32,000 nucleotides of DNA from Trichodesmium erythraeum IMS101. GTDB taxonomy: Bacteria; Cyanobacteriota; Cyanobacteriia; Cyanobacteriales; Microcoleaceae. Below, in pieces: positions 5,014-29,584 of this stretch. Numbering within the stretch: position 1 is the stretch's first letter; each line of letters starts with the position of its first letter. The position numbers and the translations under genes are program-made. The notes under the pieces were generated by a model. That model worked only from the letters and a program-made list of their open reading frames with translations. It ran no database searches and had not been told where the DNA came from. The stretch is from contig NC_008312.1 of the NCBI RefSeq assembly GCF_000014265.1, positions 2,040,001 through 2,072,000 of the forward strand, in the 5' to 3' direction.

Positions 5014-7569
5014 TAATAAATAGTAATATAATTACCTGGTGAACCTGTTACCTCTTTCATTGTTAGAAGTACAAAAACAAAGATAAATTTGCCAACTTTA
5101 TCCTCTATTAATTGACTAATATCCAAGTCATTAAAATTAATAATCCCGTGTTTAACCACATTCTATATGAAAGTCAAAAGGTCGATTTAAGTCTTCAGCA
5201 GAAATAGCTTCAGTTCCCCAAATATCTGACCCTACCATCACTATTTTTAAGGTAGATAAATAACGACGGCTATTAATATCAGGTCTAAGCCTTCCATTAA
5301 TAAATAGTAATATAATTACCTGGTGAACCTGTTACCTCTTTCATTGTTAGAAGTACAAAAACAAAGATAAATTTGCCAACTTTATCCTCTATTAATTGAC
5401 TAATATCCAAGTCATTAAAATTAATAATGCCGTGTTTAACCACATTCTATATGAAAGTCAAAAGGTCGATTTAAGTCTTCAGCAGAAATAGCTTCAGTTC
5501 CCCAAATATCTGACCCTACCATCACTATTTTTAAGGTAGATAAATAACGACAACTATTAATATCAGGTCTAAGCCTTCCATTAATAAATAGTAATATAAT
5601 TACCTGGTGAACCTGTTACCTCTTTCATTGTTAGAAGTACAAAAACAAAGATAAATTTGCCAACTTTATCCTCTATTAATTGACTAATATCCAAGTCATT
5701 AAAATTAATAATCCCGTGTTTAACCACATTCTATATGAAAGTCAAAAGGTCGATTTAAGTCTTCAGCAGAAATAGCTTCAGTTCCCCAAATATCTGACCC
5801 TACCATCACTATTTTTAAGGTAGATAAATAACGACAACTATTAATATCAGGTCTAAGCCTTCCATTAATAAATAGTAATATAATTACCTGGTGAACCTGT
5901 TACCTCTTTCATTGTTAGAAGTACAAAAACAAAGATAAATTTGCCAACTTTATCCTCTATTAATTGACTAATATCCAAGTCATTAAAATTAATAATCCCG
6001 TGTTTAACCACATTCTATATGAAAGTCAAAAGGTCGATTTAAGTCTTCAGCAGAAATAGCTTCAGTTCCCCAAATATCTGACCCTACCATCACTATTTTT
6101 AAGGTAGATAAATAACGACAACTATTAATATCAGGTCTAAGCCTTCCATTAATAAATAGTAATATAATTACCTGGTGAACCTGTTACCTCTTTCATTGTT
6201 AGAAGTACAAAAACAAAGATAAATTTGCCAACTTTATCCTCTATTAATTGACTAATATCCAAGTCATTAAAATTAATAATGCCGTGTTTAACCACATTCT
6301 ATATGAAAGTCAAAAGGTCGATTTAAGTCTTCAGCAGAAATAGCTTCAGTTCCCCAAATATCTGACCCTACCATCACTATTTTTAAGGTAGATAAATAAC
6401 GACAACTATTAATATCAGGTCTAAGCCTTCCATTAATAAATAGTAATATAATTACCTGGTGAACCTGTTACCTCTTTCATTGTTAGAAGTACAAAAACAA
6501 AGATAAATTTGCCAACTTTATCCTCTATTAATTGACTAATATCCAAGTCATTAAAATTAATAATCCCGTGTTTAACCACATTCTATATGAAAGTCAAAAG
6601 GTCGATTTAAGTCTTCAGCAGAAATAGCTTCAGTTCCCCAAATATCTGACCCTACCATCACTATTTTTAAGGTAGATAAATAACGACAACTATTAATATC
6701 AGGTCTAAGCCTTCCATTAATAAATAGTAATATAATTACCTGGTGAACCTGTTACCTCTTTCATTGTTAGAAGTACAAAAACAAAGATAAATTTGCCAAC
6801 TTTATCCTCTATTAATTGACTAATATCCAAGTCATTAAAATTAATAATCCCGTGTTTAACCACATTCTATATGAAAGTCAAAAGGTCGATTTAAGTCTTC
6901 AGCAGAAATAGCTTCAGTTCCCCAAATATCTGACCCTACCATCACTATTTTTAAGGTAGATAAATAACGACAACTATTAATATCAGGTCTAAGCCTTCCA
7001 TTAATAAATAGTAATATAATTACCTGGTGAACCTGTTACCTCTTTCATTGTTAGAAGTACAAAAACAAAGATAAATTTGCCAACTTTATCCTCTATTAAT
7101 TGACTAATATCCAAGTCATTAAAATTAATAATGCCGTGTTTAACCACATTCTATATGAAAGTCAAAAGGTCGATTTAAGTCTTCAGCAGAAATAGCTTCA
7201 GTTCCCCAAATATCTGACCCTACCATCACTATTTTTAAGGTAGATAAATAACGACAACTATTAATATCAGGTCTAAGCCTTCCATTAATAAATAGTAATA
7301 TAATTACCTGGTGAACCTGTTACCTCTTTCATTGTTAGAAGTACAAAAACAAAGATAAATTCGCCAACTTTATCCTCTATTAATTGACTAATATCCAAGT
7401 CATTAAAATTAATAATGCCGTGTTTAACCACATTCTATATGAAAGTCAAAAGGTCGATTTAAGTCTTCAGCAGAAATAGCTTCAGTTCCCCAAATATCTG
7501 ACCCTACCATCACTATTTTTAAGGTAGATAAATAACGACGGCTATTAATATCAGGTCTAAGCCTTCCAT
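5014..7569. repeat. Tandem repeat, 284-bp unit x 9, more than 99% identical, non-coding
   Basis: Units start at 5014, 5298, 5582, 5866, 6150, 6434, 6718, 7002 and 7286, an exact 284-bp period. I found only three variable sites. The ORF track has no ORF on either strand between 4885 and 7579. Confidence 0.97.
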
Positions 7570-7789
7570 AATTAAATATTTGACTATTTTTGGCTTTTTT
7601 TTAAGGAATCAGACTATCCCATTCTTTTCCCCAGTAATTACTATTACCTGTGTAAAAAATAACTATATTCTATTATTTTATTCGAGCTATTTTTTGCTTT
7701 TTTTTATTGCTCCTTTAATTATGATTAATGGTAATAATGATCCAGGAATTATTACCATTACCTTGGGGAATTGGTAAACTTTCAAATCC

Positions 7790-12679: not shown

Positions 12680-15600
12680 TAAAGGATAAGGAATAAGGTA
12701 AATACTATTTATTTTTTCCAAGTTTACAATTCTCCTATCCATAAATCAAAGACTAATTTATCTAGTAAAAAAAAATTAAACCAGGAAATTGATAATAAAA
12801 AATAGAACAAAACCTACTGATCATACTTTAATCTATTCAAAATAGATCCCAGACTCATTAAATTACTGGTTAGCTTTAATTTTACATCAGAAAATTCACT
12901 TTTTTCTACATCTAATTTTATCGTCTTTAGGAATAAATAAGAAATCAGTAAATTTTTCTATTGCTTGATAGGGAATAGGGAAAATCAAGTGAAAATTCCT
13001 TTAAACTTATTACCAAAAAGTTGATATTTTTAGACTCAATAGGAAGAGATAACAGAAAATATAAAGACACTGGAAACTGTTAGATAATAACTGTAACTGG
13101 TAACTGTTAAATAATAACTGTTACTACCTCTTGTTTTTCAAGCTTATAACTATCCTATCCATAAATTAAAGACTAATTTATCTAGATTAAAAAATTGAGA
13201 AATTGAGAGAAAAAAAGAGAACCAAATCTGCTAATAATACTTCAATATATTCAAAATATATCTCAGAATCATTAAATTACTGGTTAGCTTTGATTCTACA
13301 TCAGAAAATTCACTTTTTTCTACATCTAATTTTATCGTCTTTAGGAATAAATAAGAAATCAGTAAATTTTTCTATTGCTTGATAGGGAATAGGGAAAATC
13401 AAGTGAAAATTCCTTTAAACTTATTACCAAAAAGTTGATATTTTTAGACTCAATAGGAAGAAATAACAGAAAATATAAAGACGCTGGAAACTGTTAGATA
13501 ATAACTGTTAACTGTTAACTGTTAAATCATAACTGTTACTACCTCTTTTTTTTTCAAGCTTATAACTATCCTATCCATAAATTAAAGACTAATTTATCTA
13601 GATTAAAAAATTGAGAAATTGAGAGAAAAAAAGAGAACCAAATCTGCTAATAATACTTCAATATATTCAAAATCTATCTCAGACTCATTAAATTACTGGT
13701 TAGCTTTAATTTTACATCAGAAAATTCACTTTTTTCTACATCTAATTTTATCGTCTTTAGGAATAAATAAGAAATCAGTAAATTTTTCTATTGCTTGATA
13801 GGGAATAGGGAAAATCAAGTGAAAATTCCTTTAAACTTATTACCAAAAAGTTGATATTTTTAGACTCAATAGGAAGAAATAACAGAAAATATAAAGACGC
13901 TGGAAACTGTTAGATAATAACTGTTAACTGTTAACTGTTAAATCATAACTGTTACTACCTCTTTTTTTTTCAAGCTTATAACTATCCTATCCATAAATTA
14001 AAGACTAATTTATCTAGATTAAAAAATTGAGAAATTGAGAGAAAAAAAGAGAACCAAATCTGCTAATAATACTTCAATATATTCAAAATCTATCTCAGAC
14101 TCATTAAATTACTGGTTAGCTTTAATTTTACATCAGAAAATTCACTTTTTTCTACATCTAATTTTATCGTCTTTAGGAATAAATAAGAAATCAGTAAATT
14201 TTTCTATTGCTTGATAGGGAATAGGGAAAATCAAGTGAAAATTCCTTTAAACTTATTACCAAAAAGTTGATATTTTTAGGCTCAATAGGAAGAGATAACA
14301 GAAAATATAAAGACGCTGGAAACTGTTAGATAATAACTGTTACTACCTCTTTTTTTTTCAAGCTTATAACTATCCTATCCATAAATTAAAGACTAATTTA
14401 TCTAGATTAAAAAATTGAGAAATTGAGAGAAAAAAAGAGAACCAAATCTGCTAATAATACTTCAATATATTCAAAATCTATCTCAGACTCATTAAATTAC
14501 TGGTTAGCTTTAATTTTACATCAGAAAATTCACTTTTTTCTACATCTAATTTTATCGTCTTTAGGAATAAATAAGAAATCAGTAAATTTTTCTATTGCTT
14601 GATAGGGAATAGGGAAAATCAAGTGAAAATTCCTTTAAACTTATTACCAAAAAGTTGATATTTTTAGGCTCAATAGGAAGAGATAACAGAAAATATAAAG
14701 ACGCTGGAAACTGTTAGATAATAACTGTTACTACCTCTTTTTTTTTCAAGCTTATAACTATCCTATCCATAAATTAAAGACTAATTTATCTAGATTAAAA
14801 AATTGAGAAATTGAGAGAAAAAAAGAGAACCAAATCTGCTAATAATACTTCAATATATTCAAAATCTATCTCAGACTCATTAAATTACTGGTTAGCTTTA
14901 ATTTTACATCAGAAAATTCACTTTTTTCTACATCTAATTTTATCGTCTTTAGGAATAAATAAGAAATCAGTAAATTTTTCTATTGCTTGATAGGGAATAG
15001 GGAAAATCAAGTGAAAATTCCTTTAAACTTATTACCAAAAAGTTGATATTTTTAGGCTCAATAGGAAGAGATAACAGAAAACATAAAGACGCTGGAAACT
15101 GTTAGATAATAACTGTTACTACCTCTTTTTTTTTCAAGCTTATAACTATCCTATTCATAAATTAAAGACTAATTTATCTAGATTAAAAAATTGAGAAATT
15201 GAGAGAAAAAAAGAGAACCAAATCTGCTAATAATACTTCAATATATTCAAAATATATCTCAGACTCATTAAATTACTGGTTAGCTTTGATTCTACATCAG
15301 AAACCCCACTTTTTTTCAAAGCAAATTTTATTCTATCTAGGGATAAATAAGAAATAATTAAAGTGTTATTTTGGTTGATAATGAATAGGAAAAATTAACT
15401 GAAACTTCCTTTAAAATTATTACCAAAAAGTTGATAATTTTAGAATCAAGAGTGAGAGAGAAAATAAAATATAAAGAAGCTGAAAACTGTTAGTAAATAA
15501 CTGTTAACCGTTAACTGTTAACTAATAACTGTTACTACCTCTTTTTTTTCCAAGCTTATAACTATCCTATCCATAAATTAAAGACTAATTTATCTAGATT

Positions 15601-16359
15601 AAAAAATTGAGAAATTGAGAGAAAAAAAGAGAACCAAATCTGCTAATAATACTTCAATATATTCAAAATATATCTCAGACTCATTAAATTACTGGTTAGC
15701 TTTGATTCTACATCAGAAACCCCACTTTTTTTCAAAGTAAATTTTATTCTATCTAGGGATAAATAAGAAATAATTAAAGTGTTACTTTGGTTGATAATGA
15801 ATAGGAAAAATTAACTGAAACTTCCTTTAAAATTATTACCAAAAAGTTGAGGAATTTAGAATCAAGAGGGATAGATAAAATAAAATATAAAGAAGCTAAA
15901 AACTGTTATTAAATAACTGTTAACCGTTAACTGTTAACTAATAACTGTTACTACCTCTTTTTTTTCCAAGCTTATAACTATCCTATCCATAAATTAAAGA
16001 CTAATTTATCTAGATTAAAAAATTGAGAAATTGAGAGAAAAAAAGAGAACCAAATCTGCTAATAATACTTCAATATATTCAAAATATATCTCAGACTCAT
16101 TAAATTACTGGTTAGCTTTGATTCTACATCAGAAACCCCACTTTTTTTCAAAGTAAATTTTATTCTATCTAGGGATAAATAAGAAATAATTAAAGTGTTA
16201 CTTTGGTTGATAATGAATAGGAAAAATTAACTGAAACTTCCTTTAAAATTATTACCAAAAAGTTGAGGAATTTAGAATCAAGAGGGATAGATAAAATCAA
16301 ATATAAAGAAGCTAAAAACTGTTAGTAAATAACTGTTAACCGTTAACTTATAACTGTTA
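12680..16359. repeat. Tandem array of 9 units (388-420 bp). Each unit is a decayed copy of the last ~90 codons of the methyltransferase gene plus its downstream spacer
   Basis: The landmark caag(c/t)tt recurs at 12719, 13139, 13555, 13971, 14359, 14747, 15135, 15551, 15967 and 16376. The last occurrence is inside the real CDS. Periods are 420, 416, 416, 388, 388, 388, 416, 416 and 409. The units align colinearly with 16360..~16630. Confidence 0.95.
13501..13540. repeat. Heptamer microsatellite (AACTGTT)n, STRR-like; one tract per unit of the 12.7-16.4 kb array (representative copy)
   Basis: Sequence ataactgttaactgttaactgttaaatcataactgttact. Units of 388 bp have a shorter tract (ataactgttact), which accounts for the 28-bp (4 x 7) length difference from 416-bp units. 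A similar tract, ctgataactgataactaataactgtt, lies at about 8491-8516. Confidence 0.85.
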
Positions 16360-17220
16360 TTACCTCTTTTGCCCCCAAGCTTCCAATTCTCCTATCCATA
16401 AATTAAAGACCAATTTATCTAGATTAAAAAATTTAGAAATTGAGAGGAAAAAAGAGAACAAAACCTGCTGATAATACTTCAATCTATTCAAAATATATCC
16501 CAGGCTCATTAAATTACTAGTCGGCTTTGATTCTACATCAGAAAATCCACTTTTTTCCAAAGCAAATTTTATCGTATCTAGGGAGAAATAAGTCAAGTGT
16601 TCTGTTGGTTTATAATGATACCAAAAAGACCCTAATAATCTATGCCAAAACCCTCCCACATTTGGAGTAGTAATAAAAATCCATCCTCCAGGTTTCAAAA
16701 GTTGATAAGCTGCTGTTAATTGAGCAATAGGATCTGTCGTATGTTCAATCATATCTTGCAACATAATCAAATCAAAAGAATTAGGTTCAAAACTATGATT
16801 AAACAAATCCCCTTGATGTACAGATAAGCCCCTACTTTTAGCAAAATTTACTGCATATTCTGAGACTTCTAAACCTTGAGGTTTATCCCATCCTAAATCT
16901 TTTGCTTGCTCCAAACAATCACCTAAAGCACAACCCACATCTAATAATAAACCTTGACCAAAAAGTTTTTTCTCTGCTTTTAATAAACGTTTACGAAAAG
17001 TCTGATTATTAATTTTCATCCCTTGGAAATAATTAGAATATCCTCCTTTAGGGAAATCGTTATTATAATAACTTTCCTGATAAATAGTAGTAGGATTTAC
17101 TGGCGGATTATTATCCCATACCATACCACATTTAGAGCATTTTGCTAATAGATAGTTATCCCCTGCTTTATAATAGTTAAACTTGTTTGTATGACATAAG
17201 GGGCAATAATTTTTTTGCAT
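16360..17220 (-). CDS. Class I SAM-dependent methyltransferase with an N-terminal Cys4 zinc-ribbon
   Basis: 286-aa ORF. CPLCHTNKF...CSKCGMVW zinc-ribbon. Motif I LLDVGCALGDC, plus LIMLQDMIEH and LKPGGWIFITTPN. Its last ~270 nt are the master copy of the downstream tandem array. Confidence 0.85.
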   Translation of the reverse strand: MQKNYCPLCHTNKFNYYKAGDNYLLAKCSKCGMVWDNNPPVNPTTIYQESYYNNDFPKGGYSNYFQGMKINNQTFRKRLLKAEKKLFGQGLLLDVGCALGDCLEQAKDLGWDKPQGLEVSEYAVNFAKSRGLSVHQGDLFNHSFEPNSFDLIMLQDMIEHTTDPIAQLTAAYQLLKPGGWIFITTPNVGGFWHRLLGSFWYHYKPTEHLTYFSLDTIKFALEKSGFSDVESKPTSNLMSLGYILNRLKYYQQVLFSFFLSISKFFNLDKLVFNLWIGELEAWGQKR

Positions 17221-22783: not shown

Positions 22784-24964
22784 TTAATTAACATTAGTCA
22801 AACTCTTAAACTTGCCAGTAAACCTATTAAAGAACAACTCTAAAACAGTCCGCTTACCAACATTAATATTAGAGTTAATTGCCATACCATTCTGTAAGCC
22901 AATTTCCAGATCATTCTCATTATCCAGAACAAATGTTTGGCGTTCTAAATCAATTGTAGTTTTAAAAGAAAAATAAGGTCTTCCTGCTTCTTGGTCTGGT
23001 GGCATAGCATCATCACTAATAGAAATAACCTCCCCAGTCACAGTTCCAAATTCATTAGCAGGTAAAGCTTCAACTTGTACTTCTACAGGTACACAGTCTA
23101 CATCACTTAAACCTAGTTTTTCCCTATTTTCTTTTAACTCCGGACAAGCACATTTTTTACCTGCTTCACATGCAATAACCTCTCCACCAGCTAACTCTTC
23201 GTCGTGATAAGGTTCTAATTTTTTGCGTTTATCATTTAAAGCTTTTAACACCAGAGCAACATCTTTATTCTGAATATAAACTACTGCTTTCAAACCTTCA
23301 TCATCATCCAATACTGTCAGTAAAGGTTGAGTTTGTTGTGCCTCATAAGAAGCATCCTCACATCTTTCTGGTTGAATATCTCCTGGCTTCAAAACATCAT
23401 TAATAACATATTGACAGATAGGGTCTGTCTTAATATCTAAAGAAGATTCTTCTTTAGTTGTAGGTTGTAAATCAAAAATCACCCCAGAAACTGGTGACTT
23501 TAAAACTTGATTATCACGAGCTTCTTCTAACTTTTCTATTTGAGCATTAACTTCAGTCAGTCGCTTGTTATTTTCTAATTGTAAGCGAGTAAATTGAGAA
23601 TCTATTCTGGAAATTTCTCTACCTTCATTTTCAGCAATTCTGGCATAAAGTTCCCTTGCCCAAGCATCTCTTGTATTTTTTAATTGTTCTCTAGTTCTAT
23701 TAATAGATACATTTAAACGTTGTTGTTCTAACCTAATACGTTGCACTTCTGCTTGACGCGCCTTAACCTCTCCTTCTCGGGCATTAATATCAGCTTTTCT
23801 AGAATTAATTTCACCCTCGCGAGTATTAACTTCTCCCTCTAAATTATTAAGGTCCGCCCTACGAGAATTTACTTCTCCTTCTCTAGCATTAATATCAGCT
23901 AACCGAGAATTAATTTCTCCCAATCTAATATTTATTTCTCCTGCCCTTGACTGTATTTGGTCTTGTTGTCTTAAGAGCTCACTTTCCCCACGAAATACTT
24001 CTTGTTCTTGACGTTTTTTTTGCAGTTCAGCCATAGCTCCTTCTTCTACCAAAGGAGATATTTGCTCTAGAATTCCTTGGTTAGAATCTAATACTTGTCC
24101 TGATTTATCTAATTGCCCCTTTGCTAGCTTTAATTGTTCTTGAGAATACTTTAATTGTGCCTGAGTATTGTTCAGTTGTTCTCTGGCAAATTTCAGTTGT
24201 TTTTCTGTATTATTTAATTGTTCATAAGCATAAGTTAGCTTTTGCTTACTATTATTTAATTGTTGTTTAGCAAATTCTAATTGTTGTCTAGAATATTGCA
24301 ATTGATCTTGAGCAACCCTTAATTGTTCTGTTGCTGCTTCTTCCTGTTTTTCTGCTTGTTGAAGTTGTTTTTGTAGTTCTCGAACTTGTAATTCTACAGC
24401 ACCTACACGAGAATTATATTCAGCCTTGTAATTGATATATAATCCTTGTAAACTTCTGTCAATATTCACAAAACGACCTCTGTTTAAATAAAGTTCATCA
24501 ATTAAAGCGCCATAGGCTTGGTTTTCTGATAGTCTAGTTTGTCTTTCTTGAGCAAGTTTTCGCAAATCTGAAGGTAAATCTCTAGGAACTTTACCATTTA
24601 ATACTTCCTCATAAAATTTATTTTCTCTTTTGAGAGTTTCTTTTAACTTAATTGCCGAACCTAAATCTGCACTGGGAGCAGTAGGGCTAAAAGTTAATAA
24701 TGGTTGATTTTTTTCTACCCGATCACCATTTTCTACATGAAGTCTAACTACATTTCCACTGGTAGGAGCTTGGACATCTATAGAACCATCTTTAAGTTCT
24801 AATTTACCTGTTGCCGGTACAGCTTGGTCTATCTCGGCAAAGTAAGCCCAGATAATAGCTGAACTAGTCATAATCATAATCATCCAGAGAAATAGCCGAG
24901 ATAATATAGCTGGTTTCTCTAAAATTATTGGTTGTTCTTTTAATGATATTGATTTATCTTGCAT
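22784..24964 (-). CDS. HlyD-family membrane fusion / periplasmic adaptor protein with a greatly extended coiled-coil
   Basis: 726-aa ORF. N-terminal TM helix LFLWMIMIMTSSAIIWAYF. Lipoyl-like half motifs GKLELKDGSIDVQAPTSGNVVRLHVENGDRVEKNQPLL and LKSPVSGVIFDL. About 380 aa of heptad-rich helix lies between them. Confidence 0.85.
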   Translation of the reverse strand: MQDKSISLKEQPIILEKPAILSRLFLWMIMIMTSSAIIWAYFAEIDQAVPATGKLELKDGSIDVQAPTSGNVVRLHVENGDRVEKNQPLLTFSPTAPSADLGSAIKLKETLKRENKFYEEVLNGKVPRDLPSDLRKLAQERQTRLSENQAYGALIDELYLNRGRFVNIDRSLQGLYINYKAEYNSRVGAVELQVRELQKQLQQAEKQEEAATEQLRVAQDQLQYSRQQLEFAKQQLNNSKQKLTYAYEQLNNTEKQLKFAREQLNNTQAQLKYSQEQLKLAKGQLDKSGQVLDSNQGILEQISPLVEEGAMAELQKKRQEQEVFRGESELLRQQDQIQSRAGEINIRLGEINSRLADINAREGEVNSRRADLNNLEGEVNTREGEINSRKADINAREGEVKARQAEVQRIRLEQQRLNVSINRTREQLKNTRDAWARELYARIAENEGREISRIDSQFTRLQLENNKRLTEVNAQIEKLEEARDNQVLKSPVSGVIFDLQPTTKEESSLDIKTDPICQYVINDVLKPGDIQPERCEDASYEAQQTQPLLTVLDDDEGLKAVVYIQNKDVALVLKALNDKRKKLEPYHDEELAGGEVIACEAGKKCACPELKENREKLGLSDVDCVPVEVQVEALPANEFGTVTGEVISISDDAMPPDQEAGRPYFSFKTTIDLERQTFVLDNENDLEIGLQNGMAINSNINVGKRTVLELFFNRFTGKFKSLTNVN

Positions 24965-25273: not shown

Positions 25274-28273
25274 TTATTGTTGAGATTCTTGTTGTTGATA
25301 AAGGCAGAAATAACGCCCTTTTACTCCCATTAATTCATCATGGGTTCCCTGCTCTACCACCGAACCTTTATCCATCATTATGATAGTATTAGCATTTTTT
25401 ACTGTTGTTAAACGGTGAGTAATAAAAAACACTGTTGTATTGGTAAAAGCCTCAGCTAAATTCTCTCCAACCTGACGTTCAGAACTGTAATCTAAAGCGC
25501 TAGTTGCTTCATCTAATATCAACAATTTGGGATTTTGTAGAACTGTCCGAGCAATTGCAATTCTTTGTCTTTGACCCCCTGACAAAGAAGCTCCTCTTTC
25601 TCCCACCATTGTGTTATAACCACTAGGCAAATTCATAATAAAATCATGAGCAACTGCTATCTTAGCGGCTCGAATAATTTCATCAGTCGTTGCATCTGGA
25701 TTTGTCAAAGCAATATTATCTTGAACAGTACCATTAAACAGAAGAGTATCTTGTAAAACCACCCCAATTTGACGGCGTAAAGAGTATAGTTCTACCTTTT
25801 GAATATCATATCCATCAATGAAAATTCGACCAGAAAGTGGAGGATATAAGCGTTGCAATAACTTCATTAGTGTACTTTTTCCGGAACCACTCAACCCCAC
25901 AATACCCACAAAATGACCAGCAGGAAATTCCAGATTTATATTTGCTAATTGTAAAGGTCCGCTTTGAGTAAACCTGAAGCAAAGTTCCTCAAATTTGACA
26001 CTGCCATTAATTGGTGGCATATCAATATTATTCCGGTCTTCCTCATCTACTTCCGCTTCAGTATCTAAAACATCTCTTAATCGTTCAATTGACATTCCTA
26101 CTTCTTGGAAACTTTGCCAAACACTAACAAAACGGAGCAATGAACCTGTCACATTACCAGCAATAATTCGGAAAGCAATTAATCCCCCTACAGATAACTG
26201 ACCATCAATAACTAAATAAGCGCCAACCCATAAAAGCGCTAATCCTGAAAGTTTATTTAAAAATGTACTAATAGAACTAGAAGTAGTTTGAGTAAGAACA
26301 GTATTAAAACTAGCAGTCATAAATCTAGTATAACGGGATGACCATTCCCAACGAGACTTCAATTCTAAATTTTGCGCCTTAACAGTTTGCACACCATTTA
26401 GTACTTCTACCAAGTATGACTGAGAATCTGCATAACGTTCTGCCTTTTTCCGTAGTAACCTTCTGACAATAGGAGAGTTAATTAAAATAATACCAGCAAA
26501 GAAAGGTACTCCAGCCAAAGCAACCGCCGTCATTAATGGGTTGAGAGTCAACATTACAGCAACATAAATTACTGAGAAGACCGCATCTAAAACCACTGTT
26601 AAGGCTGTGCCTGTCAGAAAATTCCGAATATTAGCTAATTCTCCAATTCTACCTACCAAATCACCTACCCGGCGATTATCAAAATAAGTGAGTGGTAGAC
26701 GAAGTAAATGGTCAATTACCTCTGAGCTAAGTTTGACATCTATACGGTTAGTAGTATCTACAAATAAGAAAGTCCGTAGACCTCCCAACAAAGCCTCAAA
26801 TAGAGCCACTAATAACATCAAGATTCCCAGAACATCCAAAGCCTCAATATTACGTTGCCCCATCACTTTATCGATGATAATCATCGTCATTAGAGGGTTG
26901 ACCAAGCCAAATACCTGTACAAAAAATGAGGAAATCAAAACCTCAATAAATACTGTGCGATGTTCCATCAAAGAAGGAACAAACCACCAAAAACTAAACT
27001 GTTCCTTCTGCTCAGTTTTTGGTGCTTCTAGTAGTAGAATTTGTCCTGACTCTCCCCAAATTTCCTGGAACTCACCTGGTTTGAGACGACTTAATCCTGA
27101 TTCTGGACTCCCAACGACAATTTCTTTTTCTGTAATACTATAAAGTATACCAAAACTATTTTGCCATTCAACTAGAGCTGGTGCTCTGAGTCGAGGCACT
27201 GCTGATGCCGACACTTGTGCTAGTTGACCCGTTAATCCCATCATCTGAGCGATCGCCCCACAAGCCTGCATAGACACTCTACCTGCTGTGCGGATCTGAT
27301 TATCCAATACTCGACGAATTACGTCCCGGCGAAACCTGAGGCCAAAATGTTTGGCTAGCATCTGAAAGCAAGCTAAAGGAGCTGCTATTTGTCCTTTAGC
27401 TCGAAAAATTGGGTACTTTTTTGATGAAGTATCTTGAGCCACAGTAGGTTCTGATGGACGTGCTGGTGCTAGGGGAACCTTAGATAAATCCAAGGGTACC
27501 AGTTGACTAGTTTCCGCCCAATTTTCTATTGTTTGTTCCTCATCTTGTTGTTCAGGTAATCCGATAATTCTTGCACCTCTTGGCCCTTCTATTTTAATAG
27601 ACCTACCTGTTCCAGCTCTATCCAAAACTACTTGAGAACCTGAAGGAAAATCTCCTACTACCCCACTACTAACTAGCCATATTTTTTTTTTGTCGAGGAT
27701 CGAAGCTATTTCTATGGTTTTGTGGTCTCCTTTCGGTAGATTTACTACTACAGTATTTTGGACAACATTTTGAGCTAGTTGTTTGAGGTTATTATTTACT
27801 TCAGCTCTTCTATCAAATTCTTGGCTTAGTAGTTCAAATACTTCACTTATTGCTGGACTTTCGAGAAAGACTGCTCCAAATTCTGGTTCTACTTCTAGTA
27901 TTGCCAAAAAATCTGCTGCTGGTAAAGTAATAGCGATTAAGTCTGTGGAAGCGAGTGCTGTTTCACAAGGCATCCCTCGTAGCAACCCGGCCCAACCTAG
28001 AATTTCTCCTGGTCCTGCTAATTGCAAACTGATGTGACGTTGCGATCGCTCCTCATAACCTAATACTCGTGCCTGACCCTGATAAATAATTGCTATCTGG
28101 TTTGGCATTTTTTCCCTTTCAAATAGTGGTTGGCCAGCACGGTAACCTAGAAGTTGACACTTTTCCACTAATTGAGTTCTCAGAGCATTTTCTGAAAGTT
28201 TGTTAAATGGTGGCTTATTTGCCAGAAATTCTTGTACTTGTACTCTTGATATTGTCGAAGAAGGAGTAGCCAT
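25274..28273 (-). CDS. ABC exporter of the HlyB / bacteriocin-exporter class: cNMP-binding-like domain + C39-like domain + 6-TM domain + NBD
   Basis: 999-aa ORF. aa ~20-135: cyclic-nucleotide-binding fold (IYQGQARVL...GPGEILGWAGLLRGMPCETALA). aa ~290-415: C39-peptidase-like domain (AAPLACFQMLAKHFG). TMD at aa ~430-720. NBD with Walker A GLSGSGKST, signature LSGGQRQRIAIAR, Walker B LLILDEATSALD and H-loop ITHRL. Confidence 0.9.
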   Translation of the reverse strand: MATPSSTISRVQVQEFLANKPPFNKLSENALRTQLVEKCQLLGYRAGQPLFEREKMPNQIAIIYQGQARVLGYEERSQRHISLQLAGPGEILGWAGLLRGMPCETALASTDLIAITLPAADFLAILEVEPEFGAVFLESPAISEVFELLSQEFDRRAEVNNNLKQLAQNVVQNTVVVNLPKGDHKTIEIASILDKKKIWLVSSGVVGDFPSGSQVVLDRAGTGRSIKIEGPRGARIIGLPEQQDEEQTIENWAETSQLVPLDLSKVPLAPARPSEPTVAQDTSSKKYPIFRAKGQIAAPLACFQMLAKHFGLRFRRDVIRRVLDNQIRTAGRVSMQACGAIAQMMGLTGQLAQVSASAVPRLRAPALVEWQNSFGILYSITEKEIVVGSPESGLSRLKPGEFQEIWGESGQILLLEAPKTEQKEQFSFWWFVPSLMEHRTVFIEVLISSFFVQVFGLVNPLMTMIIIDKVMGQRNIEALDVLGILMLLVALFEALLGGLRTFLFVDTTNRIDVKLSSEVIDHLLRLPLTYFDNRRVGDLVGRIGELANIRNFLTGTALTVVLDAVFSVIYVAVMLTLNPLMTAVALAGVPFFAGIILINSPIVRRLLRKKAERYADSQSYLVEVLNGVQTVKAQNLELKSRWEWSSRYTRFMTASFNTVLTQTTSSSISTFLNKLSGLALLWVGAYLVIDGQLSVGGLIAFRIIAGNVTGSLLRFVSVWQSFQEVGMSIERLRDVLDTEAEVDEEDRNNIDMPPINGSVKFEELCFRFTQSGPLQLANINLEFPAGHFVGIVGLSGSGKSTLMKLLQRLYPPLSGRIFIDGYDIQKVELYSLRRQIGVVLQDTLLFNGTVQDNIALTNPDATTDEIIRAAKIAVAHDFIMNLPSGYNTMVGERGASLSGGQRQRIAIARTVLQNPKLLILDEATSALDYSSERQVGENLAEAFTNTTVFFITHRLTTVKNANTIIMMDKGSVVEQGTHDELMGVKGRYFCLYQQQESQQ

Positions 28274-28439
28274 TTAGTTTATGTTATTTCACTATAGTTG
28301 GGAGATAACTATTGATTTTCCCTAATTTTTATATATTTGGGTATTTATATGATTCACTAGAAAATTGGGTCTGCTAAACTTTTTGAGGGACTTTTGCTAA
28401 GATTTCTGTGCCATAGAATATGCTATGTTCTTTAATTAT

Positions 28440-28800
28440 TTGCAAGGGGGCACGCCTCCTTCGGAGGAGACGCCTCTTGCAGAGGAGCTTTGCTTTAGGC
28501 ATATCTAGGAATTTGTTTTCTTACCCTTTACCCCTGCCGTCCAAAATCTGAATTTTGGAGAGGTATATTTCCGGCCACGGGTATGAAACCCATTTCATGT
28601 CGCGTTTGATCTGCATAGCGATAAGGAAAATAAAACTAAAATTATAAACGGACGCGGAGGAACCCGCAACTTTCCCTTACTTCCCTTTCCTGGAGGGGGT
28701 GTGAGTGGGTTGGGGTAGATGCAGCATCCGAATTCAGGGTAAGCTTTGGGTCAGCAAAACGTCAACCCACCGAATATCTATAGCTCAGGATAAATTTCAC
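28440..28800. other. G+C-rich, hairpin-dense non-coding island (candidate structured RNA, leader or retroelement relic)
   Basis: My hand count gives about 47% G+C over 28441-28800, visibly above the flanking AT-rich intergenic DNA. Two tandem 18-nt hairpin modules: acgcctccttcggaggag and acgcctcttgcagaggag (28452-28487). Other stems: ccaaaat/attttgg (28541-28558), atgaaa/tttcat (28583-28598), gcgg/ccgc (28654-28667). Long-range 8-bp pairing gtgggttg (28705-28712) with caacccac (28763-28770). Confidence 0.5.
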
Positions 28801-28828
28801 CATCTAATACCCGAAGAGGATCTCAACC

Positions 28829-29584
28829 CTAAACTTTTACATCTGATACATCTGAACCTAATGGCTTCAAAAGCCCAATTTTTCCTATTTGTTCTCGTAT
28901 CCAATTTTCTAATAATTCGTCCATTAGACGCCGACGCATTGAATCATCAAGCTGTGCTGGGATAAATTTTTCTAACCTAATAATTACTGTCCATTCTGTT
29001 AATGGACGTGGAGCCCAGATTTGCCCTGGTTGACTTACTGATAAAATTTTGCTTATAGAAGGATGTGGTTGAATTAGGGGGACAGGGCCTAACAACCCTC
29101 CTGTTCGCCCTTCTGGGCCTTCTGAATATTCACGAGCAACTTCGGCAAAAGTTTGCTCTTCTTCTACTATCCGAAAGTATAGTTCATGGGCTAAACCAGG
29201 ATTTTTTGTTCGAATTAGAGAATATACTACTTGGTCTAAGCTACTCTTGCGGGTGAGAAAATATCTTTCTACTTGATTTTTCCAAGTTTGTTGTTTAAAT
29301 TTTTCTAGCAATACTGGCCTAATTGCCATTTCTTCTAGTTGTTCTTGGGTCATGTTTTGGCTTTTTAGCCATGCTTGTTTAGCTTCGGGGTTATTTAATT
29401 GGTATTGAGTCTCAAATTTTTCTAAGGCTGTTGTTTTTTCCTTTTCTGTGCAAGTCAAGCTAGCGATCGCTTCGTCAATTATTACCCCTCGTAAAAAATG
29501 AGGCATTAACTGATAACGTTGTAATAGCGATGGGATATCTTGGGCTTGCAATAATTTATCACCTATTTGAAATAATCCTGTCAT
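28829..29584 (-). CDS. Parvulin (PpiC-type) peptidyl-prolyl isomerase-like protein, no signal peptide
   Basis: 251-aa ORF. The C-terminal half matches the parvulin pattern F.E.A..YSE.P....GG.LG........P.......L..G.I..P: TFAEVAREYSEGPEGRTGGLLGPVPLIQPHPSISKILSVSQPGQIWAP. The N-terminal ~130 aa are helical and chaperone-like. Confidence 0.7.
   Translation of the reverse strand: MTGLFQIGDKLLQAQDIPSLLQRYQLMPHFLRGVIIDEAIASLTCTEKEKTTALEKFETQYQLNNPEAKQAWLKSQNMTQEQLEEMAIRPVLLEKFKQQTWKNQVERYFLTRKSSLDQVVYSLIRTKNPGLAHELYFRIVEEEQTFAEVAREYSEGPEGRTGGLLGPVPLIQPHPSISKILSVSQPGQIWAPRPLTEWTVIIRLEKFIPAQLDDSMRRRLMDELLENWIREQIGKIGLLKPLGSDVSDVKV

What the first reader, a model, noticed from the sequence alone, without database searches (positions are those of the whole stretch)
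28440..28800. G+C-rich, multi-hairpin island in the 555-bp gap between the parvulin-like gene and the ABC exporter gene
Within a very AT-rich intergenic context, this ~360-nt block is about 47% G+C by my hand count. Sub-blocks near 28441-28500 and 28681-28740 are above 55%. It is packed with complementary segments:
- two tandem 18-nt hairpin modules, acgcctccttcggaggag / acgcctcttgcagaggag (28452-28487), closed by ttgcaag...ctttgc
- ccaaaat-ctga-attttgg (28541-28558)
- atgaaa-ccca-tttcat (28583-28598)
- gcgg-aggaac-ccgc (28654-28667)
- an 8-bp long-range helix, gtgggttg / caacccac, enclosing 50 nt (28705-28770)

It lies where a 5' leader of the exporter operon, or a 3' element of the upstream gene, would be transcribed. 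Candidate identities are a riboswitch or leader controlling secretion, an independent sRNA, or a fragment of a group II intron or retroelement. I cannot assign it to a known family by eye.

A 31-codon minus-strand sORF sits inside it at 28616-28521 (MQIKRDMKWVSYPWPEIYLSKIQILDGRGKG).
Basis: seen in the sequence. Interest (0 to 1): 0.65.

Follow-up and report, generated by a model that had tools for sequence, protein, structure and literature searches.

The report
Decayed IS605-type transposon fossil
The G+C-rich, hairpin-rich block between the two genes is the eroded remnant of a small IS200/IS605-family (TnpB-type) transposon that entered this spacer in an ancestor of Trichodesmium; it is an ordinary relic of selfish DNA, not a riboswitch or leader RNA.

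Summary
Window 28440-28800 is 47.4% G+C in a 31% window (99.9th percentile), and every listed hairpin is present. Predicted folding is no better than shuffled sequence on either strand, and Rfam gives no match.

The window comes from Trichodesmium erythraeum IMS101. Other Microcoleaceae have only 113-121 nt between the same two genes. Trichodesmium carries an extra 469 nt (28358-28826). On the plus strand, antisense to both genes, its two ends match the left and right ends of IS200/IS605-family tnpB elements found in Okeania and relatives:
- Right end: nhmmer E=1e-18.
- Left and right ends against intact 1.4-kb elements: the two best hits in the window, collinear and on one strand.

The tnpB gene is gone apart from five recognisable codons. 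The G+C-rich part corresponds to the transposon's guide-RNA (omega RNA) scaffold, which is 53-59% G+C in other copies.

Across Trichodesmium species the element changes as fast as or faster than synonymous sites, and its terminal hairpin is eroded (3 of 9 pairs). The 31-codon sORF is not conserved. Only about 84 nt next to the exporter start codon is conserved.

Verdict: a fossil of a known kind, of low interest. One point is unexplained: a local hotspot of divergence between close strains.

The parts
28829..29584 (-). Parvulin-like peptidyl-prolyl isomerase gene (251 aa), upstream neighbour. Its stop codon lies 2 nt from the transposon's right end.
   Evidence: ORF; Pfam Rotamase and homologues named peptidylprolyl isomerase; exact protein found on the 7,750,108-nt T. 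erythraeum IMS101 chromosome.
28644..28826 (+). Right-end (RE) remnant of an IS200/IS605-family tnpB element. It holds the last recognisable tnpB codons (N-G-R-G-G, 28647-28661) and the former omega-RNA scaffold, and ends in ...GGATCTCAA.
   Evidence: nhmmer profile of three non-Trichodesmium copies hits 28644-28829 (+) with E=1.2e-18. A profile of three intact 1378-nt elements hits 28751-28826 (+) at its very last positions, E=0.0025. Alignments. G+C is 0.49 here against 0.53-0.59 in other copies. Covariance model R1 gives only 13.2 bits, E=0.14. The terminal hairpin keeps 3 of 9 pairs.
28438..28643 (.). Interior of the fossil, where tnpB once lay. It holds the two 18-nt hairpin modules (28452-28487), hairpins at 28540-28559 and 28583-28598, and the 31-codon minus-strand ORF (28616-28521). 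No recognisable coding remnant.
   Evidence: No homology outside the orthologous Trichodesmium loci. tblastn with TnpB fragments and Pfam are not significant. The sORF has 5 amino-acid changes against 1 synonymous change versus L008, a frameshift in L009 and no ATG in L012. The hairpin modules are present but diverged in three Trichodesmium lineages.
28358..28437 (+). Left-end (LE) remnant, starting TAGAAAATTGGGTCTG... The LE hairpin is eroded.
   Evidence: Second-best nhmmer hit of the intact-element profile (model positions 36-116 to window 28351-28428, +, E=0.17), collinear with the RE hit. Multiple alignment with the LEs of L022a, L022b, L016 and the Trichodesmium orthologues.
28353..28357 (+). 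TTCAC immediately 5' of the LE: the presumed transposon-adjacent motif (TAM) of the insertion site.
   Evidence: Intact copies have TTGAC or TTTAC at the same position before CAGAAAATTGGG / CGAAAAATTGGG. No target-site duplication is visible. This is an inference from 6 copies, not an assay.
28274..28357 (-). Original (pre-insertion) spacer: the conserved 5' region of the ABC exporter gene, probably its 5' UTR/RBS and perhaps its promoter.
   Evidence: 99% identical to L008, 89% to L019 and 88% to L012, above the 77-83% identity at 4-fold sites. About 50-75 nt is also conserved in other genera.
25274..28273 (-). cNMP-binding / C39 peptidase / ABC exporter gene (999 aa), downstream neighbour.
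   Evidence: ORF; Pfam cNMP_binding, Peptidase_C39, ABC_membrane, ABC_tran.

Best explanation
**What it is.** Window 28358-28826 (469 nt) is the fossil of a non-autonomous IS200/IS605-family transposon of the tnpB-only type. Its sense strand is the plus strand, antisense to both neighbouring genes.

**How it arose (inferred from what is known of the family).**
- In an ancestor of the genus Trichodesmium, a single-strand 'peel-and-paste' event placed the element 3' of a TTCAC motif. The site was an originally ~86-nt spacer, and the right end landed 2 nt from the PPIase stop codon.
- The tnpB reading frame was then lost through internal deletion and decay. Both ends eroded, so the element can no longer move.

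**Why it looks the way it does.**
- In this family the last ~190 nt (the end of tnpB plus the right end) encode the structured, G+C-rich omega-RNA scaffold and the subterminal hairpins used by the transposase.
- The G+C island and many of the hairpins are leftovers of those parts.

**What it does now (inferred).** Most likely nothing sequence-specific. It lengthens the PPIase-exporter spacer from about 86 to 555 nt.

**Shown versus inferred.**
- Shown: homology of both ends, absence from relatives, lack of constraint, erosion of structure.
- Inferred: the insertion mechanism, the TAM, and non-function.
For: 1. **Organism.** Exact PPIase and ABC proteins lie on the 7.75-Mb IMS101 chromosome.
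2. **Extra DNA.** The gap is 113-121 nt in other Microcoleaceae (L004-L007). In three Trichodesmium lineages it is 555, 417 and 543 nt, with the same flanks.
3. **Other copies of the core.** A 24-nt core of the block recurs in Okeania sp. SIO2F4 in an unrelated 1.6-kb intergenic region (L016). It also recurs in metagenome contig L022, next to a tnpB gene.
4. **L022 carries tnpB.** Pfam hits are HTH_OrfB_IS605 2.5e-20, OrfB_IS605 7e-29 and Cas12f1-like_TNB 2.6e-15. L022 also holds an internally deleted copy.
5. **Intact relatives exist.** TnpB proteins of 394-400 aa are abundant in Okeania, Dapis, Hydrocoleum and related Microcoleaceae.
6. **Right end.** The nhmmer profile of the three non-Trichodesmium right ends hits window 28644-28829 (+), E=1.2e-18.
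7. **Both ends against intact elements.** The profile gives, as the two best hits in the window, its last 76 positions at 28751-28826 and its LE positions 36-116 at 28351-28428. Both hits are on the plus strand and in the right order.
8. **Composition.** The right-end region has 0.53-0.59 G+C in other copies, against 0.35 for the tnpB body. It is 0.49 in the window.
9. **No constraint.** LE, interior and RE are 66-78% identical where they align at all, against 77-83% identity at 4-fold sites. Only the non-element flank is 88-89% identical.
10. **Erosion.** The terminal RE hairpin keeps 9/9 pairs and -12.6 to -16.9 kcal/mol in L022b and most tnpB-linked copies (8/9 in L027 and in the short copy L016, -13.2 to -13.8). 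The window has 3/9 pairs and -1.7 kcal/mol. The covariance model scores the window lowest of the four orthologous Trichodesmium copies, 13.2 bits.
11. **A second fossil.** Another copy of the same family lies about 10.7 kb away in the same genome (L001 10-158).
Against: - No protein-level remnant of TnpB is statistically detectable in the window. The best match is 'KTKIINGRGG' against 'QSETLNGRGG', E=0.07 in a tiny database.
- The interior 28438-28643, which holds the two 18-nt hairpin modules, has no homologue outside the orthologous loci. Its origin is open: decayed tnpB or a later insertion.
- The LE match alone is weak (E=0.17). It is convincing only together with the RE match and the alignment.
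- The TAM and the exact boundaries are inferred from six copies.
- Transcription was not examined, so residual expression of an omega-like or antisense RNA cannot be excluded.
- Divergence between close strains is about 7-fold above 4-fold sites. That is more than plain neutrality predicts.
Confidence: 0.88

Rival explanations
1. The fossil's right end is still expressed from the plus strand as an omega-like guide RNA. It would either be used in trans by a TnpB encoded elsewhere, as proposed for PATE-like elements, or act as an antisense RNA over the 3' end of the PPIase mRNA.
For: - The block is homologous to the omega-RNA/right-end region of tnpB elements.
- Meers et al. (doi 10.1101/2023.03.14.532601) note that protein-less PATE-like elements often encode omega RNAs that would act with TnpB in trans.
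- Pfreundt et al. 2014 (PMC4143802) report that 115 non-coding transcription start sites in IMS101 drive transposase pseudogenes and IS elements.
- The sister lineage L008 keeps a better scaffold (30.2 bits, E=9e-6).
Against: - In IMS101 the scaffold helices are broken: 3/9 pairs in the terminal hairpin, the GAGC/GCTC hairpin lost, and the closing helix hit by a G-to-C change.
- There is no purifying selection across species.
- No close intact TnpB from T. erythraeum appeared among the 120 best homologues.
Confidence: 0.07
2. The inserted DNA has been co-opted as a spacer with regulatory effect. It would terminate PPIase transcription (the T-rich stretch after the gcgg/ccgc hairpin on the minus strand) and/or supply a promoter, so that the exporter is expressed independently in Trichodesmium.
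For: - A terminator-like site lies on the minus strand at 28667-28648, followed by TTTATAATTTTAGTTTTATTTT.
- The spacer has stayed long (417-555 nt) in three Trichodesmium lineages.
Against: - The terminator-like stem is weak (6 pairs including G-T, 3 G-C). It is simply the reverse complement of the tnpB 'NGRGG' codons.
- No minus-strand promoter-like site was found in the gap.
- The element is not conserved above the neutral rate; only the pre-existing 84-nt flank is.
Confidence: 0.08
3. A cis-acting riboswitch or structured 5' leader of the exporter mRNA, or an independent conserved sRNA on the minus strand.
For: - The position is upstream of the exporter gene and the G+C content is high in an AT-rich genome.
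- One compensatory-looking event exists in the hairpin CGUCUCCU-CCGA-AGGAGGCG. An ancestral A.C mismatch became G-C in IMS101 and A-U in L008.
Against: - No Rfam match.
- The minus-strand folding z-score is -0.39.
- The block is absent from other genera with the same gene pair.
- It is largely unalignable between Trichodesmium species.
- The long-range helix and hairpins are not kept in L012 or L019.
- The single compensatory-like event can also arise by template switching within an imperfect palindrome.
Confidence: 0.02
4. The 31-codon minus-strand ORF (28616-28521) encodes a small protein, for example an exporter substrate.
For: An ATG-to-stop ORF exists.
Against: - Against L008 there are five amino-acid changes and one synonymous change.
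- L009 has a frameshift in the ORF.
- The start codon and frame are absent in L012-L015 and L019.
Confidence: 0.01
5. A fragment of a group II intron or other retroelement.
For: T. erythraeum has many group II introns (PMC4143802).
Against: - No match to any Rfam intron model even at E<=10.
- Both ends match IS200/IS605 tnpB elements instead.
Confidence: 0.01

Closest known systems
Protein-less or internally deleted IS200/IS605-family elements (PATE-like elements; Meers et al., doi 10.1101/2023.03.14.532601)
   Same: - It keeps a left end and a right end homologous to those of tnpB-carrying elements and has no transposase gene.
- The right end corresponds to the omega-RNA region.
- Related copies are dispersed in unrelated contexts (L016 two copies, L022 two copies, and a second fossil in T. 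erythraeum).
- There is no visible target duplication, and a conserved pentanucleotide sits before the LE.
   Different: The window copy is eroded: both subterminal hairpins are degraded, and it has been fixed at one site since before the Trichodesmium species split. It is a fossil rather than a mobilisable element.
tnpB-only elements of the IS200/IS605 family in Okeania, Dapis and Hydrocoleum (L023-L030; TnpB of 394-400 aa)
   Same: - LE motif CAGAAAATTGGGTTT...GACTTTTT.
- RE ending GGATGTCAA.
- 'ETLNGRGG' codons followed by the structured right end.
   Different: - The window lacks the ~1.1-kb tnpB body.
- Its right end belongs to a sub-type with a 55-70-nt G/C-rich expansion, seen in L016 and L022b but not in the intact copies recovered here.
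TnpB omega RNA (reRNA) guide-RNA genes
   Same: Derived from the same DNA segment. The family consensus has 40 predicted pairs, 6 of them with compensatory changes.
   Different: - The structure is not kept in the window (13.2 bits, E=0.14).
- No adjacent TnpB.
- Expression is unknown.
- This omega-RNA type is not in Rfam; even the other copies scanned, including intact tnpB elements, give no match.
IS relics in T. erythraeum intergenic DNA (Pfreundt et al. 2014, PMC4143802)
   Same: That paper attributes 10.3% of the non-coding genome fraction to IS elements, many of them transcribed. This locus is one more case.
   Different: I could not check whether this particular relic or any transcript from it was listed there; the supplementary tables are not held.

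Membership tests
IS200/IS605-family element (non-autonomous / fossil) | Right end homologous to the right end of tnpB-carrying elements | tested here: met
   nhmmer E=1.2e-18 at 28644-28829 (+). The profile of intact elements gives E=0.0025 at its last 76 positions.
IS200/IS605-family element (non-autonomous / fossil) | Left end homologous, on the same strand and in the right order | tested here: met
   Model positions 36-116 match window 28351-28428 (+), E=0.17. This is the second-best hit in the window and is collinear with the RE hit. Alignment.
IS200/IS605-family element (non-autonomous / fossil) | Insertion 3' of a short conserved motif (TAM), without target-site duplication or terminal inverted repeats | tested here: inconclusive
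   TTCAC lies before the LE in the window; intact copies have TTGAC or TTTAC. The junctions TTCAC|...TCAA|CCCTAA show no duplication. The TAM of this sub-family has not been determined experimentally, and only 6 copies were compared.
IS200/IS605-family element (non-autonomous / fossil) | Presence in relatives of the same sequence linked to tnpB, and dispersed copies | tested here: met
   L022a tnpB carries three Pfam domains. Intact loci L023-L030. Copies occur in unrelated contexts in L016, L022 and L001.
IS200/IS605-family element (non-autonomous / fossil) | Absence from the orthologous site in related genomes (an insertion polymorphism between genera) | tested here: met
   The gap is 113-121 nt in L004-L007 and shares only the ~50-75 nt next to the exporter start codon.
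Mobilisable IS200/IS605 element | Intact subterminal hairpins at LE and RE, and a tnpB and/or tnpA gene | tested here: not met
   The RE hairpin keeps 3/9 pairs and -1.7 kcal/mol, against 8-9/9 pairs and -12.6 to -16.9 kcal/mol in the non-Trichodesmium copies. The LE hairpin is eroded. No TnpB remnant is detectable by Pfam or tblastn.
Functional TnpB omega RNA gene | Conserved scaffold secondary structure | tested here: not met
   Covariance model R1, built from six non-Trichodesmium copies, gives 13.2 bits and E=0.14 in the window, against 30.2 bits in L008. Helices are broken by IMS101-specific changes.
Functional TnpB omega RNA gene | Transcription and processing; a cognate TnpB in the genome | not testable with these tools
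   The supplementary transcription-start tables of PMC4143802 are not held. The complete IMS101 genome could not be scanned.
Riboswitch / cis-regulatory leader | Match to a known family, or conservation with covariation at orthologous loci on the mRNA strand | tested here: not met
   Rfam gives no match. The minus-strand z-score is -0.39. The block is absent in other genera and largely unalignable between Trichodesmium species.
Group II intron fragment | Similarity to intron domain models | tested here: not met
   No Rfam match at E<=10 in 28200-28900.

The most novel reading that the evidence does not exclude
The fossil is not inert. Its interior and right end form a local hotspot of change: 22 substitutions in 389 nt between two T. 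erythraeum-clade lineages that differ by under 1% elsewhere. This could mean that relics of TnpB/omega-RNA elements undergo ongoing ectopic conversion with other copies, or RNA-guided cleavage and repair. It could also mean that a still-expressed omega-like antisense RNA acts on the PPIase-exporter locus.
Probability: 0.07. Interest if true: 0.45.

Novelty: new member of a known kind. Interest (0 to 1): 0.15.

Why it matters
- It removes a false candidate for a secretion riboswitch or sRNA.
- It shows concretely how part of Trichodesmium's famously large non-coding fraction arises. Here a transposon fossil inflates an ~86-nt spacer to 555 nt.
- It is a practical warning for RNA hunting in AT-rich genomes. 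The guide-RNA ends of TnpB transposons mimic structured-RNA genes in composition and hairpin content, and this omega-RNA type is missing from Rfam.
- The profile and covariance model built here could be used to mask such relics genome-wide.

Tried and rejected
**Searches that found nothing**
- Rfam at gathering thresholds on the whole window, and at E<=10 on 28200-28900.
- blastn of the gap against PLSDB plasmids.
- Repeat search inside the window and the first loci: no second copy of any part of the island.

**Ideas tested and dropped**
- Dispersed short hairpin repeats as the source of the island. The hairpin modules have no copies outside the orthologous loci.
- The sORF as a gene.
- A TnpB coding remnant by Pfam and tblastn: not significant.
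- A consensus fold of the first 190 nt on the gene strand: weak, -12 kcal/mol, with only three effective lineages.

**Technical problems**
- A first MAFFT alignment wrongly suggested that the thiebautii-clade middle region was unrelated. Local alignment later showed partial homology.
- One alignment was spoiled by wrong coordinates for L022a and was discarded.
- P0133 could not be located.
- The transcription-start tables of Pfreundt et al. are not held.

**Limit of the genome scan**
- The genome-contig scan did not return IMS101 itself. The window region is probably masked there.
- So the copy number in IMS101 is known only from the one extra fossil seen in L001.

Full report
**Observation**

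Both flanking genes are on the minus strand. The parvulin-like PPIase runs 29584..28829 and the cNMP-binding/C39/ABC exporter runs 28273..25274, leaving a 555-nt gap at 28274-28828.
- The block 28440-28800 is 47.4% G+C, against 31.1% for the window.
- That value is at the 99.9th percentile of all 361-nt windows.
- Predicted folding energy does not differ from dinucleotide shuffles. The z-scores are -0.39 (minus) and -1.62 (plus) for the block, and -0.16 and -1.40 for the whole gap.
- Rfam gives no match at gathering thresholds for the whole window, and none at E<=10 for 28200-28900.

**Source and comparative picture**

The exact PPIase and exporter proteins occur on a 7,750,108-nt contig, the size of the Trichodesmium erythraeum IMS101 chromosome. 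Their cluster mates are Trichodesmium and Okeania proteins (genome size from PMC4143802).

I retrieved the same gene pair from relatives, with these spacer lengths:

| Source | Loci | Gap (nt) |
|---|---|---|
| Identical contigs | L001, L002 | 555 |
| Second erythraeum-clade lineage | L008-L011 | 555/556 (96% identical) |
| Trichodesmium MAG_R04 | L019, L020 | 417 |
| Thiebautii-type lineage | L012-L015, L018 | 543/544 |
| Okeania | L021 | 458, unrelated sequence |
| Okeania | L003 | ~558, middle unrelated |
| Other Microcoleaceae | L004-L007 | 113-121 |

Across genera, only the 50-75 nt next to the exporter start codon is conserved.

Within Trichodesmium, the 84 nt at 28274-28357 is 88-89% identical. 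The rest of the gap is 66-78% identical where it aligns at all. Identity at 4-fold sites of the flanking genes is 77-83%. The block is therefore extra DNA specific to Trichodesmium and shows no sign of purifying selection.

The 31-codon ORF has five amino-acid changes and one synonymous change against L008. It has a frameshift in L009 and no start codon in L012.

**Identification**

A scan of one genome per species with a 24-nt core from the best-conserved part of the block returned three hits:
- the orthologous locus in a thiebautii-type MAG;
- one chance hit;
- a copy in Okeania sp. SIO2F4 (L016), inside an unrelated 1.6-kb intergenic region. There the similarity extends over about 190 nt, window 28826-28640.

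The metagenome scan returned contig L022. In it the same sequence lies at the 3' end of IS200/IS605-type tnpB genes.
- One copy is a fragmented full-length tnpB. Its Pfam hits are HTH_OrfB_IS605 2.5e-20, OrfB_IS605 7.3e-29 and Cas12f1-like_TNB 2.6e-15.
- The other copy is internally deleted. It keeps the first 38 and the last ~60 codons plus both ends.

Intact relatives of 394-400 aa are numerous in Okeania, Dapis, Hydrocoleum and related Microcoleaceae. I fetched three distinct intact elements, L023, L027 and L028.

All copies share these features:
- a left end, CAGAAAATTGGGTTT...GGGCGACTTTTT, preceded by TTGAC or TTTAC;
- the codons for ...ETLNGRGG;
- a structured right end terminating in GGATGTCAA.

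**Match to the window**

All matches are on the plus strand, antisense to the two genes.
- A profile of the three non-Trichodesmium right ends hits 28644-28829 with E=1.2e-18.
- A profile of the three intact 1378-nt elements gives two best hits in the whole window. Its last 76 positions match 28751-28826 (E=0.0025). Its left-end positions 36-116 match 28351-28428 (E=0.17). The two hits are on the same strand and in the correct order.
- The left-end alignment with six other copies is convincing by eye.

The element therefore spans 28358 (TAGAAAATTGGG..., preceded by TTCAC) to 28826 (...GGATCTCAA). That is 469 nt, ending 2 nt from the PPIase stop codon. Removing it leaves an ~86-nt spacer, close to the 113-121 nt seen in genomes without it.

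Of tnpB, only the N-G-R-G-G codons (28647-28661) can be recognised. Protein-level tests are not significant. The interior 28438-28643, which holds the two 18-nt hairpin modules, has no homologue outside the orthologous loci.

**Why it is G+C-rich and hairpin-rich**
- In intact elements the last 190 nt are 53% G+C, against 35% for the tnpB body. The short derivatives reach 56-59%, and the window's right end is 49%.
- This region has a consensus structure of 40 predicted pairs, 6 of them with compensatory changes. That fits the omega-RNA scaffold and subterminal hairpins known for this family (general knowledge; Meers et al.).
- Rfam has no model for this omega-RNA type. Even the other copies scanned, including intact tnpB elements, give no match, which explains the negative Rfam result.

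**State of the copy**
- The terminal right-end hairpin has 9/9 pairs and -12.6 to -16.9 kcal/mol in L022b and most tnpB-linked copies (8/9 in L027 and in the short copy L016). In the window it has 3/9 pairs and -1.7 kcal/mol.
- IMS101-specific changes also destroy the GAGC/GCTC hairpin and hit the closing helix.
- Covariance model R1 scores L008 at 30.2 bits, L019 at 16.8, L012 at 15.3 and the window at only 13.2, E=0.14.
- The same insertion, with the same flanks, is shared by three Trichodesmium lineages. It therefore predates their split.
- A second fossil of the family lies about 10.7 kb beyond the PPIase gene in the same genome, outside the window (L001 10-158).

The conclusion is an old, immobile, decaying element.

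**Comparison with known systems**

The block works like, or rather once worked like, the protein-less or internally deleted IS200/IS605 derivatives called PATE-like elements. Those often retain an omega RNA.

It meets the homology, dispersal and insertion-polymorphism criteria of that family. It fails the criteria for a mobilisable element or a functional omega-RNA gene. Pfreundt et al. already attribute 10.3% of the IMS101 non-coding fraction to IS elements, so the kind is known and this is one more member.

**Unexplained**

Between IMS101 and the L008-L011 lineage, 22 substitutions fall in 28438-28826. The comparison regions show far fewer:
- 0 of 80 in the left end;
- 1 of 84 in the conserved flank;
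- 8 of 2400 in the upstream intergenic region (Fisher p=2e-13);
- 4 of 475 at 4-fold sites (Fisher p=3e-5).

Both lineages carry derived states. In one hairpin, an ancestral A.C mismatch was repaired differently in each lineage.

Candidate causes are ectopic conversion from other copies, a short recombination import, template switching in imperfect palindromes, or decay of G+C-rich DNA in an AT-rich genome. None was tested.

**Verdict**

The regulatory-RNA interpretation is not supported. The block is a fossil of an IS200/IS605-family tnpB/omega-RNA element. Interest is low, apart from the divergence hotspot and the practical lesson for RNA screens.

Noticed in passing
window 28438-28826 versus L008-L011: Local divergence hotspot between two erythraeum-clade lineages: 22 substitutions in 389 nt, against under 1% in the flanking genes, the left end and a 2.4-kb upstream intergenic region. 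All 22 involve a G or C in at least one lineage.
   Followed up: partly
window 28455-28474 (minus-strand hairpin CGUCUCCU-CCGA-AGGAGGCG): An ancestral A.C mismatch (kept in L019 and L012) became G-C in IMS101 and A-U in L008. The two lineages made independent pair-restoring changes on opposite arms. This could reflect selection or template switching within a quasi-palindrome.
   Followed up: partly
L001 10-158 (same genome, about 10.7 kb beyond the PPIase gene, outside the window): A second decayed right end of the same IS family in T. erythraeum (nhmmer E=6e-11; covariance model 25.5 bits).
   Followed up: partly
window 5014-7585, 12717-16667 and 1-560: Three large tandem arrays in AT-rich non-coding DNA: 284 nt x9 at 97-100% identity, 388-416 nt x10, and 70 nt x6. 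Each unit carries short ORFs. They lie in the same region as a C39-peptidase ABC exporter and an HlyD/AprE-like gene. It was not checked whether they encode exporter substrates or abundant ncRNAs such as those reported for other IMS101 arrays.
   Followed up: no
window 23735-23941: A 21-nt periodic repeat (7 units) inside the HlyD/AprE-like gene at 22784-24964 (minus strand).
   Followed up: no
window 26936-27625: The only other stretch of the window as G+C-rich as the island (up to 48.5%). It lies in the exporter gene between the cNMP-binding and C39 domains. The exporter stretch overlapping and just downstream of it (27300-27999) is also more diverged between lineages: 14 differences versus L008 in that 700 nt.
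   Followed up: no
L012-L015, between the element's left-end flank and the conserved 5' region of the exporter gene: The thiebautii-type lineage carries about 94 nt of extra sequence that is absent from the erythraeum-type and MAG_R04 lineages.
   Followed up: no
L016 5146-5201 (minus strand) and L016 6529-6712: The Okeania SIO2F4 contig holds a sub-threshold RAGATH-18 match (33 bits, E=0.009; RAGATH-18 is an RNA linked to IS607 TnpB). It also holds a second right-end copy of the IS family studied here.
   Followed up: no
L021 3751-4208 and L003 2928-3485: Okeania genomes also have long PPIase-exporter spacers (458 and ~558 nt), but with unrelated content: AATTCTA/TAATTAA-type repeats in L021 and a GGGTCGTAGCT(A/G)CGCTA direct repeat in L003. 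This spacer seems to be a recurrent landing site for extra DNA.
   Followed up: no
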